Below, one piece after another: positions 24,001 through 30,000 of a stretch of DNA of 60,038 nt. Position 1 is the first letter of the stretch. Every line of letters begins with the position of its first letter. This DNA is from Escherichia coli (GTDB lineage: Bacteria; Pseudomonadota; Gammaproteobacteria; Enterobacterales; Enterobacteriaceae): the NCBI RefSeq assembly GCF_003991155.1, contig NZ_CP031296.1. One strand, given 5' to 3'. Made by a program: the position numbers.

Positions 24001-27000
24001 GGTTATTTTTGGGATTTGCCAGTGCCTTTTTCACTGCCGGAAGGGTGTTGTCGTTGATCAGAACGCGCTTAACGGGTTTTGTGTTGCCTGCATATTCCAG
24101 GACCTCATCGACAAGTAGCTGTCCTTCGTCATCTGGATCGCCAGCATGAATAATTTCGGTCACATCGGCACGCCTGATAAGCTCAATAATCGTTTTAACT
24201 TGTTTTGCGGCGCTTTCTACTGGCTGGTATTTTACGGGATAAAGACGCAAAGGGAGTGTTTCAATCTTCCACTCTTTGTATTCAGGATTATAGTTTTCGG
24301 GGGGCTGTGATTCGATAATATGACCAAAACAGTTAGTCACAATAGTATTATCACTTTCAAACCAGCCATCATGACGGGTAAAATTGCCACCAAGCGCCTT
24401 AACAATATCATTCGCTACTGCGGGTTTTTCTGCGATAAAAAGTTTCATTTTGTTATCCTTTACATTGAATTAATCTTTTGGCACAACGGATAGCACGTTC
24501 TTCTGATACTGCCTGTTGCCAGTTATCTTCACTTACTGGATGTCTGAATCTGCGTTCACAGCCATTAAAAGCAAAAATCCCCTCACGGTTAAGTATATTA
24601 GTTGCAATATCCTGGTCTTTAATTCTCAAAAAGGCTGTTACGGCAAAACCAGAATACGAAGAAATTTTTGAAATGATGCATTCATCAGCTTTTATTAACG
24701 CGGCAAAAGGAACTATCTTTTGATGACCACACGAAATCAGAGGGAGTGTGTGAATATCATAATAAGCTATTGAATGACAATCCATGCGGGTATCATCAAT
24801 AGCTGCCAGCCAGAATCCTGTCTGGTCTTTTATTTTTCTGCTAATATCTGAATCTGAAACACCAGGATTTAATAAATATCCACCATAACAGACATGGAAG
24901 GGGTGAGCAGATTCATCAATATCAGGAAGTTCTTTTACCGGATTTTCTTTCCAGTCCTTCAGAACACCGAATTCAAGAGCATCCAGCAAAAACTTTCGTT
25001 CAAATCCATCAAGCAATGCATATTGCATGTTAAACCTCTCAAAGAAGCTCTGATTTGTTGACCTCATGGTGAACCAGTTCACCATTGCGTAAGACAAACA
25101 GGTAAGAAAACTTTCTTTCCTTATCTTTCAGTCAGTTTTTGTATTCAGAAAGAATAAACACCCAGTCATCGGTGCTGTAATGAGATGCGATGACTCATTA
25201 TCTTTTTAGTGATGAGTTGATTATTTTTAAAATATGCCTGCCTTTAATTAGCATGTTTCTGGAAACAGCCTGATTACGAATACCTCTCATCTGGTCAAAC
25301 TGATAGGTTAAATCATGTTCTTTTCGTGAAAGTCCAAGAGTGGCTCTTTCATTATCCATCAGGACTGAAATTGCAATATATTCTCCAGATGCACACCAGT
25401 CTGCATAACTGGCAACGCAATGTTCCATCTCCTGACCTTCCTGACACAGAGCATCAAATGTAATTAATTCATTTACACCGTTATCAACTTTCTGCCAGTT
25501 TATCCCAGTTCCTTTCCATTTTGGGATTACGGGAATAACGTTATTCTTCACTTGTCGCGTCCATTCATCAGATAGTCTCCAGAAAGAAGGCCACTCCTGG
25601 TTTTTATGAATTAACCGTTCTTCTGCTAACAACCAGTCAATTGCATGACACAACTGATTCGTTTCCATTTCCCAGCGTGATGTTTGCCTGGATTCAGTAT
25701 TACGGTCATAAAAGCCAATGTTTTTAAATAAATCACGATGATATTCTAGCCATTTTGAGCATATACGATAAATATCATTTTCTTTTTCTGAGTAAGCTCG
25801 AATGCTAATATAATCGATAATCCAGTAAATTGCTCTCACAGGATAGTTCTTGATAAGTGGATGGCGTAATAATCTGACTGTAAATCTGAATGATGCATTA
25901 TCATGTTTATCATTTAAAGCATATACTAATGACAAACTAACATGTCGTAAACTTCTGAACTCACCATAACTAAGTTTGCAGGGAAAACTGATTTTTTCAT
26001 ATAACTCTTTTGTCTTTCCAGATAGTATAAACTGACCATTTTTATGTTGTTGTCTTAGACGACCAACCATAGGCCACAATCCGAAAAAATCCATATCATT
26101 CACAATATGGATTCGCTTTGAAAAATCCAGATAGTCCTCAAATAATGCCTGACGAATTGAATTGTAAGCTATCGAACAATGTGAAGCTCTGGCATATTGT
26201 GCAAATATCTTTTTATCTACCATTATCCATATAGCTTTACTCAATGCTTTTGAAGCATTAAATTCATTATCCACCCCTATAATTTTTAATGCTCTCTGAT
26301 AAATTTTGTTTTTTATCTCTGCGAGTAAAATATGTCTGCTGATATATCGTGTATTATAGGGGTAGTTGAATGATGCTATTTTACCAAGGCAATGAACAAT
26401 GTCATGTATTCCATACTCATATGAGTAATATACATTGGATGGATATAGTGTGGAAATATAACGACTCTCACTGTTTTCCTCTTCCTCTCCAATGCGTAAC
26501 AAATAGAGTTTGTCTTCAATTGAATATCCAGCCTCAATCAATGATTTGATGATGTAGCTAATCGCATATTTTAACCAGTCGTCCATGTCGTATGCAGATT
26601 TTTTAGACCAGAATAAAAAAATCTTACCAGGAAATGAATTTCTTCTGGTCCATACCCCAGTGTGCTTATCTCTTAGCTTGTATCCCCACAAAGTGATTTT
26701 GTTATTCTTTTTGTTTTTTCTAATACGAAAAACGCCACAAATGATAATGGAGATGTACTTTTCATTCTCCTCTGTTTTTACAAGACGAAGCCCCCCTGTA
26801 TTTTGATAGATTTTAAAAACATCATGCAACGTAAGAATATTATTGTCCCTTGTCTGTTGATTAATTACATACATGCCGCCCCCTGTTAAAAAGAAGCCTT
26901 TAATATTGCACAAAGATAAAAAGACAGAATCATGGCAAACCAAAAGAAGAATGCATTTTCTTGCCCCCTTAATTTCTGATACGCCATTCCCACGGTGGAA

Positions 27001-30000
27001 CCGGATTTGCATCGGCCCACAAACCACGTTTTTGTTCCTGCGCTTCCCGTTGCAGAGCCGGTAATGACTCATCCACGTTGTAACGTTCATATACCCATGC
27101 AGCGCCAGACTGAACCATAAAGCGGCTGGCATCCGTGCCGTTCGTCGTGAACACATGACCGATAATGCGTCCGTAGCGGTCTTTATGTGAATAAGAGACT
27201 GTCACCTGTTTACCTGCAACCAGAGTTTTAAGCTGACTAGTTGACCAGCGTCCAAAAGGTTGTTTCTTTTCAGGGGCATCGATGTTTATCAATCGGACTC
27301 GGATCGGAACTTCATACACAACAATTTTTGCGGGTAGTGTTTTAATTTCTATGGTGTCGCCATCGAGAACGCGAATAACTTTCCCCTGAAGAATTTTCTG
27401 GTTAAATGTATAAGGTATTCCACCTGCATTTGCAGACTGAAAAGCGGTAAGCAGATAAATAAATATTGTTAATAAGATTTTCATAAAAGATTAACGTTAA
27501 TTTGTCTGTGCAATGGATAGAGCGTTATTCTTATTTTCTTCCTGCCGCTTCATCGAAAAATGATGATTTTCCTACTGCTGCGGCATCATACTGAAATGAA
27601 TATCCAAAATCATCGTCATGCTCAAAACCTGTATTTTCTCCATTTTTTAGTCTGGAAAGAATAATCTCAAGTTGACTGATTATATCTTCCCTTTCACTAT
27701 GACGAGTGCCTTGTAAGAGAATAGTTACTTGTTGCAAAGGATATGCATGTTCAATCCATGCCTGGCTAGGTCCAGAGTGCGTTGTATATAAATTTTTTTG
27801 TGCCGAAATATTATTCAGAAAACAGTTTAAGTCATCATTGGAATAAATTTCTTTAATATTGTTGATGTTGGATGTTAGTTTTCCAAGTTGGAATGGTGGA
27901 GAATTTTTGTCTTCATTGTTGTCTCCTTTATCGTATTCTGGAAACACAATTAACAAAGGTGCACCATTAGTTCTCTTCATAAAACGGGTTACTAGCCGCC
28001 CAATATATTTATTGGACATATGCTGTTCAATGTCCAGGACAGCATATTCCTCCGCTGGGAACATTTTGTTTTTTTCGATGGATTTAATTTTTCTGGTAAG
28101 ATGAATGTTTCTGATAAGCAAACCTACTATCAGGAAGTAAATAAATATCCAGAATAAAAAATCACTCTGTAGTTGTTCTATCATAAGTGAATCCTCTAAT
28201 TTGTTAATGGACAAATCATTACCCGTTCATCAATGTTTGTAGGAAGTTCGCCAGGAGTAGGGACGCGTTCTCCTCGCTGGGCGGCTTGTGCCAGTGTTCG
28301 TAGCAGCAACACGCTGGCATGAAATATGGCCTGTTCTTTTGTGGCTGCGCTTGTTTCCAGGTCGAAATCACTCAGAGTCACAACGACTTGCCCGTTTCTG
28401 TTCTCGACCGTTGCCGGGTAGGGAACAAAATAGGGAGCGATTTTGCTGGTTTGCTTGCGTCGGGCATCGAGTTTACTGACAAGTTGATAAGCCCGAAGGT
28501 GTGTGTATCGTTTCAACATGTTCAGGGAGCGATGGCCTGAAATAGCGGCAACCTCAATGACGTTCAATGTACCAAGTTCGAAAAATCGGCTGATAGCCTC
28601 ATGACGGAGGTCATGAAAATGCAAGTTTTCTATCTTCAGTTCCTGAAGTGCTGTTCGCCAGGCACTTTTGAATCCCGAAGAGGTATAAGAAAAAATATTA
28701 CCGTTAAGCTGTGTCGGCAGCATTTGCAGGTAATTACGGGCTTTCCTGGATAGCGGAACATCGCGTGGAGCACCGTTTTTGGTTGTTGGAAGATGAGCTA
28801 CCCCATGTTGCAGATCGACGTGTTCCCAACGCAATGACAAGATTTCACCTTGTCGCATTGCTGTTTCCAGCGCCAGATGAAAAATGACGTAAAGAGCCTG
28901 ATTTTTTTCTTTGAAATACCGCGAAAGTCGGCGTTCTTCTCCTGAAGTCAGGCGACGATCGCGCCCGCTACTGATTTTGGGTTTTCTGACCAGTTCGACA
29001 GGATTCATGCGGCATGTTCCCCATTCCACACGGGCGATATTGAATAATGATGACAACAGGGCAAGTTCAAGACGGACGGTGTTTCCGGTTATTTGACGCC
29101 CCGTTCGTGGGTTAATTTGCGCCAACCGTTGATCCCGATAATTGGCAATATCAACAGTGGTAATGTCATCCATATAGCGTTCAGCAATAGGGTGACGTTT
29201 AATCACATTTACGCGATAAAACTCCTGTAGATGGCCTTTTTTGTGGATGGATACTGTCTTCAGGTATTTGTCCAGCGCCCGGCTGATTGTCATTTTGCGA
29301 ATTTTGATTTTCTGAAACATATCCCCTCCAGACAAAAAAGGGGGGAAGGTAGAGATTCTTGCTTCGAAATGCAATATCACCGTGCCAATCCGGTACGTGG
29401 AAAAAAATTGGCGCAGGTGATAGCCAAATTGTTACCGCTTCAGCTACTGCGTGGCGTTGGCCTGGAGCAACGGCAACATGTCCATCTGGCAAGAAAGTCA
29501 TTGGTGGAGGCGGTCAATGCAGATCAAATACCGGATTTATATGGCTCACACGTTCCATGCCTTCAGGCAACAATGCATGGACTGCCAGTTGCGACACGAC
29601 CGAAGATCAAAATGGTTCAATTACAGTTTACGCCATTTGCCAGTGACGATACTTATCACTGGCAAACCACGATGTAACTACATTTCCCCGACAGGTCAGT
29701 TCGGTGAGTACCGCCATAAAAGTTGTATTCGTCATAGAAGCCGCATTTCACAATTCGATTGGCATCATAGGTTGCAACTGACCCCGCAAAATAATTCGGC
29801 TTCCACCCGTGCGGATTTTCTGCATTACTGACACTCCAGGTACACTGGCTGGCAGAAAAACCAGATGGCAATGGGATCTGTTGTCCATTTGCTATTTTTC
29901 CTGTCAGAACAGTGCTACCTGATGCCCTTCTCCACGTACCGGATTGGCACTGGCCTCCGTGCCAATCCGGTATCTGGACAACGGCAAAAGTGAACTTCAC

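What the first reader, a model, noticed from the sequence alone, without database searches (positions are those of the whole stretch)
24453..27484. Accessory operon: secreted nuclease, a 558-aa AT-rich unknown protein, a 214-aa unknown, then topoisomerase III
Four minus-strand genes appear co-transcribed: an SNase-like secreted nuclease (26969-27484), a large AT-rich protein of no clear family (25198-26874; C-terminal HCV-containing motif that may be PcfJ-like), a 214-aa unknown (24453-25097) and a Topo III-like enzyme. The middle two are unexplained and sit between DNA-processing enzymes. They could be establishment, exclusion or defence-related factors.
Basis: partly seen in the sequence, partly recalled or inferred. 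Interest (0 to 1): 0.6.

Follow-up and report, generated by a model that had tools for sequence, protein, structure and literature searches.

The report
IncI2 plasmid nuclease–PcfJ–TopB tail module
This is the conserved tail end of the conjugation gene block of a well-known mcr-1 IncI2 resistance plasmid: a secreted nuclease, two conserved proteins nobody has characterised, topoisomerase III and Hha. The sequence is ordinary and already in databases, but what the two unknown proteins do is still open.

Summary
The window is an mcr-1 IncI2 plasmid, 100% identical over this stretch to hundreds of deposited plasmids. The minus-strand genes are real: an SNase-type nuclease, a 558-aa PcfJ-domain protein, an unnamed small protein, Topo III, then Hha.

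One correction: the "214-aa" ORF is really 191 aa. It starts at ATG 25028, and the N-terminus MQYA is conserved as far as Bacillus.

- **PcfJ-domain genes** sit inside conjugation clusters of several T4SS types. In 5 of 10 sampled lineages they lie directly next to, or within two genes of, a type IA topoisomerase, usually with H-NS, Hha or SSB.
- **ORF191** lies 4 nt upstream of topB in IncI2, IncX4 and IncX6. Its family occurs in about 1,200 plasmid records and reaches Vibrio, Bacillus and Staphylococcus plasmids.

Best reading: a non-essential DNA-handling accessory tail of the transfer region, with PcfJ and perhaps ORF191 working alongside plasmid Topo III. That mechanism is inferred, not shown. 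There is no support for a defence system. The sequence is already known and interest is modest.

The parts
27531..28184 (-). 217-aa hypothetical protein with a hydrophobic N-terminal segment (RefSeq start; the mechanical ORF begins at TTG 28214). It is the first gene after rci and lies 46 nt upstream of nuc.
   Evidence: No NCBIfam, PHROG or PADLOC family. GC 0.346. 48% identical over 58 aa to the small ORF just upstream of the PcfJ gene in a Proteus plasmid.
26969..27484 (-). nuc: SNase/thermonuclease-family nuclease, 171 aa, with a probable Sec signal peptide (exported).
   Evidence: Pfam SNase E 7e-26. Aligns to S. aureus thermonuclease with active-site residues kept. PHROG endonuclease families. 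A 57%-identical copy precedes the PcfJ gene in Salmonella p14-95A. dN/dS 0.16.
25198..26874 (-). 558-aa basic (pI 9.3), AT-rich PcfJ-domain protein. The model shows an N-terminal beta-rich domain (about residues 10-175), a helical middle (about 180-445) and a C-terminal PcfJ domain.
25201..25677 (-). PcfJ domain (residues about 400-558). Superfamily-invariant residues are E479, H485, C486, T512, Q528 and N534. H485-C486 (codons 25422-25417) sit at the N-terminus of helix 487-496.
   Evidence: Pfam PcfJ on residues 457-536. Alignments of distant relatives. Secondary structure. 2,280 relatives at E<=1e-3 among 1.84 billion representatives.
25029..25197 (-). 169-nt intergenic gap with a weak terminator-like hairpin (25176-25157). 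It may be a partial transcriptional boundary. Homology to IncX4 starts only at the ORF191 start codon.
24453..25028 (-). ORF191: 191-aa cytoplasmic protein of an unnamed family specific to conjugative elements. Its stop codon lies 4 nt before the topB start. Invariant residues: M1, Q2, L14, D16, E19, Y48, G49, F108, A110, L111, N147, R148, G150, W170.
22283..24448 (-). topB: plasmid type IA DNA topoisomerase (Topo III), 721 aa.
   Evidence: NF005829 628 bits (cut-off 597) and TIGR01056 540 bits (cut-off 516). RefSeq annotation.
22008..22214 (-). hha: Hha/YmoA-family modulator (H-NS co-repressor family), 68 aa by the RefSeq start.
   Evidence: NF008191 118 bits (cut-off 90). RefSeq annotation. 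The same ORF191-topB-hha order occurs in IncX4 and IncX6.

Best explanation
**Shown**
- The stretch is the promoter-distal tail of the co-directional transfer block of an mcr-1 IncI2 plasmid. The order is T4SS, coupling protein, type IV pilus, shufflon/rci, hyp217, nuc, PcfJ-domain gene, ORF191, topB, hha.
- It is a conserved backbone segment, not cargo.
- It encodes an exported SNase-type nuclease, a plasmid Topo III and an Hha-family silencing co-factor.
- It also encodes two cytoplasmic proteins from families found essentially only on conjugative elements.

**Inferred**
- The two unknowns are non-essential DNA-handling accessory factors that act with the plasmid Topo III.
- The basic PcfJ-domain protein would bind plasmid DNA or the topoisomerase. 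It would help direct Topo III to the single-stranded, gapped or interlinked plasmid intermediates made by conjugative rolling-circle transfer and replication. It would use a conserved site built around the invariant E...H-C...Q...N residues of its C-terminal domain.
- In the IncI2/IncX lineage, ORF191 is made in fixed proportion with TopB (4-nt spacing) and may be a small partner subunit.
- Hha, with host or plasmid H-NS, keeps the AT-rich block quiet.
For: **Identity**
- 100% identity to many IncI2 mcr-1 plasmids. 435 records carry at least 80% of the 6.3-kb stretch.
- The full map of pMRY15-131_2 shows the co-directional block.

**PcfJ-TopB linkage**
- A type IA topoisomerase lies directly after, or within two genes of, the PcfJ-domain gene in IncI2.
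- The same holds for a Pantoea chromosomal element: VirB10/B11/D4, adhesins, PcfJ (42% id), TopB (54%), H-NS.
- The same holds for a Proteus plasmid (PcfJ 35%, TopB, H-NS), a Pseudomonas plasmid (TrbM, PcfJ, TopB, SSB) and a Yersinia plasmid (SSB, TopB, H-NS, hypothetical, PcfJ, YmoA).
- That is 5 of 10 sampled PcfJ lineages, with PcfJ identity down to about 28%.

**ORF191-TopB linkage**
- The same 4-nt juxtaposition and the ORF191-topB-hha order occur in IncX4 (94% aa) and IncX6 (69%).
- A PcfJ-domain gene and ORF191 homologues share one operon in a Vibrio plasmid.

**Other support**
- PcfJ-domain genes sit inside transfer clusters of several T4SS types.
- Both genes are under purifying selection.
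- The PcfJ-domain protein is basic, pI 9.3.
- Dispensability: in pA31-12 an IS3-family element splits the PcfJ gene at residue 152/153.
Against: - No biochemical or genetic data exist for either protein. The literature found only lists 'hha-topB-pcfJ' on maps.
- Adjacency could simply reflect a shared habit of sitting at operon tails. Half of the sampled PcfJ lineages, and most distant ORF191 homologues (Vibrio, Bacillus, Staphylococcus, metagenomic), have no topoisomerase nearby.
- The ORF191-topB linkage in IncI2, IncX4 and IncX6 may be one inherited module rather than independent evidence. The two plasmid types have clearly exchanged this DNA recently.
- No DNA-binding or topoisomerase-interacting fold was recognised.
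- No base rate of topB adjacency for other tail-end transfer genes was measured.
Confidence: 0.45

Rival explanations
1. Establishment or anti-defence factors. PcfJ-domain protein and/or ORF191 protect or prepare the incoming plasmid in a new host, for example by countering restriction or other immunity, or by acting on incoming single-stranded DNA. This would be independent of TopB.
For: Distant ORF191 homologues lie beside ArdC-like or zincin genes, resolvases and arrays of small ORFs typical of plasmid establishment regions. The PcfJ gene in p14-95A sits beside a very large SNF2-related protein, and in Vibrio beside an ArdC-like protein. Both families are restricted to mobile elements.
Against: By my reading of the usual IncI oriT/nikAB orientation (established knowledge, not tested here), these genes lie at the end of the transfer block next to the relaxase gene. 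That is not the side expected to enter the recipient first. There is no similarity to any known anti-restriction protein. ORF191 is only mildly acidic (pI 5.9), so it is not an obvious DNA mimic.
Confidence: 0.22
2. The PcfJ domain is an enzyme that modifies a protein, nucleic acid or small molecule. It could be a His/Cys-dependent hydrolase or transferase, or a cut-down GNAT-like acyltransferase. In this reading the neighbourhood with TopB is incidental.
Confidence: 0.15
3. Unrelated tail-end passengers. The end of T4SS operons is a permissive slot where miscellaneous accessory genes accumulate, and the four to six genes have no common function.
For: The slot directly upstream of topB is filled differently in related backbones: ORF191 in IncX4, AAA-ATPase plus ORF191 in IncX6, PcfJ in Proteus, Pantoea and Pseudomonas, and PcfJ plus ORF191 in IncI2. 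GC content is mosaic: 0.35-0.38 for hyp217, PcfJ and ORF191 against 0.44-0.45 for nuc and topB. There is recombination between IncI2 and IncX4.
Against: PcfJ-TopB adjacency persists at 28-42% PcfJ identity in four other lineages from four genera. That is hard to obtain without selection for linkage.
Confidence: 0.15
4. An anti-phage or anti-plasmid defence system carried by the plasmid.
For: A nuclease lies next to unknown proteins on a mobile element. The nuclease gives one weak PADLOC hit to an SNc-containing candidate.
Against: Neither unknown protein hits PADLOC. The nuclease appears to be exported, so it is not positioned to attack intracellular invaders. The genes are backbone, embedded in transfer operons across many plasmid types.
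Confidence: 0.03

Closest known systems
PcfJ of Enterococcus faecalis plasmid pCF10 / Pfam PF14284 (PcfJ-like protein; function unknown)
   Same: The C-terminal domain matches the Pfam model and shares the family's invariant residues. Like the founding member, it is encoded within a conjugative transfer region.
   Different: Only the last 150 or so residues are shared with most relatives. The N-terminal 400 residues are specific to an enterobacterial subfamily and its relatives of about 550-600 aa. The family name carries no functional information.
IncX plasmid backbone module topB-hha-hns at the end of the pilX/virB operon (IncX4, IncX6)
   Same: Same gene order, ORF191-topB-hha, with 4-nt ORF191/topB spacing. 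ORF191 is 94% (IncX4) and 69% (IncX6) identical. Published backbone descriptions list hns-topB as core IncX genes (PMC11880322).
   Different: IncX4 and IncX6 lack the PcfJ-domain gene and the SNase gene and add a plasmid H-NS. IncI2 has Hha only. Upstream sequences are unrelated.
Plasmid-encoded topoisomerase III such as TraE of RP4 (from general knowledge, not tested here)
   Same: A type IA topoisomerase carried by a conjugative plasmid within or beside transfer genes. By my recollection it is not required for transfer itself.
   Different: As far as I know, no accessory partners have been described for it. Here two conserved unknown genes are linked to topB.
Topo III accessory partners in cellular systems (RecQ/BLM helicase with RMI1) - functional analogy only
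   Same: The idea that a type IA topoisomerase works with dedicated partner proteins encoded or regulated together.
   Different: No sequence or fold similarity was found. There is no helicase motif in the PcfJ-domain protein. The 'SGKT' at residues 285-288 is not conserved in distant relatives.
Staphylococcal nuclease (thermonuclease, Pfam PF00565)
   Same: The nuc product is a clear member: HMM match, conserved active-site residues and an export signal.
   Different: Only about 25-30% identical to the S. aureus enzyme. It scores far below the NCBIfam equivalog cut-offs for NucI and EcnA, so it is a family member rather than an orthologue.

Membership tests
PcfJ-like (Pfam PF14284) | Significant match to the family HMM | tested here: met
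   E 5.9e-7, 29.8 bits, residues 457-536 on model positions 58-137 of 147. RefSeq names it 'PcfJ domain-containing protein'.
PcfJ-like (Pfam PF14284) | Conserved core residues shared with distant members (EG..M.HC, TLG, Q, N) | tested here: met
   E479, H485, C486, T512, Q528 and N534 are invariant in 22-26 sequences that are 24-44% identical.
Staphylococcal nuclease family (PF00565) | HMM match and the catalytic and Ca-binding residues of thermonuclease | tested here: met
   Pfam E 7e-26 over the full model. The alignment to 4zuj_A keeps DGDT, R..D.PE and YGR.
Staphylococcal nuclease family (PF00565) | Export signal (secreted or periplasmic enzyme) | tested here: inconclusive
   The N-terminus MKILLTIFIYLLTAFQSANA|GG reads as a Sec signal with an AxA site. 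No predictor was available.
DNA topoisomerase III (NCBIfam NF005829 / TIGR01056) | Score above the curated cut-off | tested here: met
   628 bits against cut-off 597, and 540 against 516.
Hha/YmoA family (NCBIfam NF008191) | Score above the curated cut-off | tested here: met
   117.7 bits against cut-off 90.
GNAT acetyltransferases (considered for the PcfJ-domain protein) | Complete GNAT fold with the acetyl-CoA-binding motif Q/RxxGxG/A, or significant sequence or profile similarity | tested here: not met
Pseudouridine synthase fold (considered for ORF191) | Confident structural match to the catalytic domain | tested here: not met
Known anti-phage defence systems (PADLOC-DB 2.0) | Match of the unknown proteins to any defence-system model | tested here: not met
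   Zero families for both unknown proteins at E<=0.01.
P-loop NTPases (considered because of 'LSGKT' at residues 284-288 of the PcfJ-domain protein) | Walker A GxxxxGK[ST] conserved across the family | tested here: not met
   The spacing is GxxxxxGKT. In relatives the GK is replaced (DGSN, DGTN, SSDS).
DUF6012 (positional equivalent after the PcfJ gene in p14-95A) | Profile similarity to ORF191 | tested here: not met
   hhalign probability 0.1%.

The most novel reading that the evidence does not exclude
PcfJ-domain proteins, and in IncI2/IncX plasmids ORF191, are dedicated partners of plasmid-encoded topoisomerase III. Together they would form a previously unrecognised topoisomerase accessory system specific to conjugative elements. 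In it, the invariant His-Cys site of the PcfJ domain carries out a new catalytic or DNA-end-recognition step needed to mature transferred plasmid DNA.
Probability: 0.15. Interest if true: 0.6.

Novelty: already known. Interest (0 to 1): 0.33.

Why it matters
These genes ride on IncI2 and IncX4, the two plasmid types named here that spread the colistin-resistance gene mcr-1. ORF191 is present in about 1,200 of 72,556 sequenced plasmids and the PcfJ-domain gene in about 540. Neither has a known function, and ORF191 has no family name. In public databases ORF191 is often wrongly labelled 'DNA topoisomerase III'. If these proteins really assist the plasmid topoisomerase or plasmid establishment, they would be a general, unexplored part of how conjugative DNA is processed. 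They would also be a possible lever on plasmid spread. If they are dispensable passengers, the finding is routine backbone annotation.

Tried and rejected
**Family and sequence searches that found nothing for the two unknown proteins**
- NCBIfam, PHROGs and PADLOC. The only hit was a marginal PHROG of unknown function on the HC motif.
- Pfam for ORF191, both as a single sequence and across all 32 alignment members.
- PDB sequence and profile searches with four profiles.

**Fold searches without a usable match**
- Foldseek AFDB50 for ORF191: only uncharacterised relatives.

**Specific ideas tested and rejected**
- GNAT relationship: hhalign gave no signal.
- Homology between ORF191 and the genes that occupy the same position after PcfJ elsewhere. 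This covered DUF6012 in p14-95A, a 189-aa ORF in Yersinia and a 191-aa ORF in an MPF_I-like cluster. None is related.
- Domain fusions of ORF191: the Paenibacillus-type 320-aa forms carry an extra C-terminal region with no Pfam match.
- P-loop reading of 'SGKT': rejected.

**Searches that gave little**
- Phage genomes: no PcfJ-domain match.
- Genome-wide locus scan: alignments A5 and A6 were too divergent to seed. A1 returned a single locus.
- Inverted repeats in the region: none.
- Promoter and terminator scan: not above chance.
- Literature: no functional study of PcfJ or of the gene upstream of topB.
- An IncX3 deletion survey reports that hypothetical genes near the T4SS change transfer less than 12-fold. 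I could not map any of those genes to ORF191.

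
Full report
**What the window is.** The 6.3 kb around the finding is 100% identical to many complete IncI2 plasmids carrying mcr-1 from E. coli, Klebsiella, Salmonella and Shigella. Of all plasmid records, 435 hold at least 80% of the stretch. On the annotated map of pMRY15-131_2 the genes lie at the end of one long co-directional block. The order is virB-type T4SS genes, the coupling protein, the type IV pilus operon, pilV with its shufflon and the rci recombinase, a 217-aa hypothetical, then (unlisted in the PLSDB table) the nuclease. 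After that come 'PcfJ domain-containing protein', a 191-aa hypothetical, 'type IA DNA topoisomerase' and hha. Further on are a small membrane protein and, on the other strand, pap2, mcr-1, ISApl1 and the relaxase. The finding is therefore standard IncI2 backbone. [quoted passage not shown]

**Checking the observation.** All four ORFs exist.
- The nuclease is a clear SNase-family member: Pfam E 7e-26, with active-site residues aligned to S. aureus thermonuclease. It has what reads as a Sec signal.
- The 558-aa model agrees with RefSeq and with the N-termini of 26 homologues. It is AT-rich (GC 0.348 against 0.423) and basic (pI 9.3).
- The '214-aa' ORF is over-extended. Every homologue, including ones from Bacillus and Vibrio, begins with the invariant MQYA at ATG 25028, giving 191 aa.
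- Topo III and Hha both score above curated NCBIfam cut-offs.
- Co-transcription is plausible from orientation and spacing. The gaps are 46, 94, 169, 4 and 68 nt. It is not demonstrated. The 169-nt gap before ORF191 has a weak terminator-like hairpin, and promoter-like sites are at chance level.

**The PcfJ-domain protein.**
- Close, full-length relatives form 32 clusters, all enterobacterial, at 42-99% identity.
- A profile search of 1.84 billion representatives finds 2,280 relatives at E<=1e-3. Most are 500-650 aa and share only the last 150 or so residues.
- Across these, E479, H485, C486, T512, Q528 and N534 are invariant.
- The AlphaFold model is good (pLDDT 83). It shows a beta-rich N-terminal domain, a long helical middle and a C-terminal beta-alpha-alpha-beta-beta-beta-alpha unit in which H485-C486 sit at the start of the second helix.

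**ORF191.**
- No Pfam, NCBIfam, PHROG or PADLOC family matches.
- Foldseek against AFDB50 returns 37 relatives at E<=1e-3. All are 'uncharacterized' or carry the propagated misnomer 'DNA topoisomerase III'. They come from Proteobacteria and Firmicutes. Next come faint pseudouridine-synthase matches (E about 0.01, TM about 0.3) that I do not trust.
- The family is in 1,200 plasmid records. A profile search gives 120 clusters, including Vibrio, Photobacterium, Aliivibrio, Paraburkholderia, Bacillus, Paenibacillus and Staphylococcus.
- A B. thuringiensis plasmid protein is a certain homologue (hhalign 99.8%).
- Invariant polar residues are Q2, D16, E19, Y48, N147 and R148.

**Gene neighbourhoods, the main functional clue.**
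- For the PcfJ domain I sampled ten lineages. A type IA topoisomerase follows directly, or lies within two genes, in five:
  - IncI2;
  - a Pantoea chromosomal element (VirB10, VirB11, VirD4, adhesins, PcfJ, TopB, H-NS);
  - a Proteus plasmid (PcfJ, TopB, H-NS);
  - a Pseudomonas plasmid (TrbM, PcfJ, TopB, SSB);
  - a Yersinia plasmid (SSB, TopB, H-NS, hypothetical, PcfJ, YmoA).
- The other five lie inside transfer clusters without a topoisomerase nearby.
- ORF191 sits 4 nt upstream of topB, followed by hha, in IncI2, IncX4 (94% identical) and IncX6 (69%). More distant homologues have other neighbours: a PcfJ-domain gene and an ArdC-like gene in Vibrio, where ORF191 is tandemly duplicated; resolvases; small-ORF arrays; and transfer genes.
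- PcfJ-TopB linkage therefore looks selected. ORF191-TopB linkage may be a single inherited module.

**Selection and dispensability.**
- dN/dS is 0.20 for the PcfJ gene and 0.16 for nuc (both against p14-95A), and 0.16 for ORF191 (against IncX6). All three are functional coding genes.
- In pA31-12 an IS3-family element splits the PcfJ gene at residue 152/153, so the gene is not essential for plasmid survival.
- An IncX3 deletion survey found that hypothetical genes near the T4SS alter transfer by less than 12-fold (PMC11880322). I could not map those genes to ORF191.

**Conclusion.**
- The identity of the locus is settled and ordinary: it is the accessory tail of the IncI2 transfer block.
- The most likely role of the two unknowns is DNA-handling support linked to the plasmid Topo III (confidence about 0.45).
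- Establishment or anti-defence (about 0.22), an independent enzymatic role for the PcfJ domain (about 0.15) and unrelated passengers (about 0.15) are the rivals. A defence system is very unlikely.
- Nothing here is new as sequence. The modest new points are the corrected ORF191 start, the recurrent PcfJ-TopB synteny, and the cross-phylum spread and mis-annotation of the ORF191 family.

Noticed in passing
window 24453-25028; UniProt A0A1X9QBD1 and many NCBI records: The 191-aa protein is widely labelled 'DNA topoisomerase III' in NCBI and UniProt, although it has no topoisomerase domain. The name has apparently been propagated from the neighbouring topB gene.
   Followed up: partly
window 24652-25040 compared with L006 (IncX4 pECJS-B65-33) 6001-8731: IncI2 and IncX4 share ORF191 at 98-99% nucleotide identity (dS 0.06), but the adjacent topB is only about 85% identical (dS 0.84) and hha is saturated. 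Homology starts exactly at the ORF191 start codon. This points to recent recombination between the two mcr-1 plasmid types.
   Followed up: partly
window 17595-21241: ISApl1 transposase, mcr-1 (541 aa) and pap2 lie directly downstream of the relaxase gene. This is the colistin-resistance cargo of the plasmid.
   Followed up: no
window 13187-17500: The relaxase-region protein is 1,437 aa and annotated 'LPD7 domain-containing protein'. That domain label is associated with large polyvalent proteins of conjugative elements.
   Followed up: no
window 28196-30700: rci-type recombinase followed by a shufflon. Many short ORFs on both strands repeat the motif [12 protein letters not shown], the alternative C-terminal segments of PilV.
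   Followed up: no
window 27531-28184 and L003 5457-5630: The 217-aa hypothetical upstream of nuc shares 48% identity over 58 aa with the small ORF just upstream of the PcfJ gene in a Proteus plasmid. It may also travel with PcfJ.
   Followed up: no
L008 (Vibrio campbellii pLA16-4) 5411-6594: Two tandem paralogues of ORF191 lie in the same operon as a PcfJ-domain gene and a zincin/ArdC-like gene.
   Followed up: partly
L019 (pA31-12) 2959-4290: An IS3-family element interrupts the PcfJ-domain gene at residue 152/153 in a natural mcr-1 IncI2 plasmid.
   Followed up: partly
window 24453-28184: Mosaic base composition. hyp217, the PcfJ gene and ORF191 are at GC 0.35-0.38, while nuc and topB are at 0.44-0.45. 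The AT-rich genes would be natural H-NS/Hha targets, and hha is encoded at the end of the same block.
   Followed up: no
L002 7793-8383 and L021 373-1008: A DUF6012 protein turns up near the PcfJ gene in two unrelated plasmids (Salmonella p14-95A and a P. aeruginosa plasmid). It is another uncharacterised companion, and it is not related to ORF191.
   Followed up: partly
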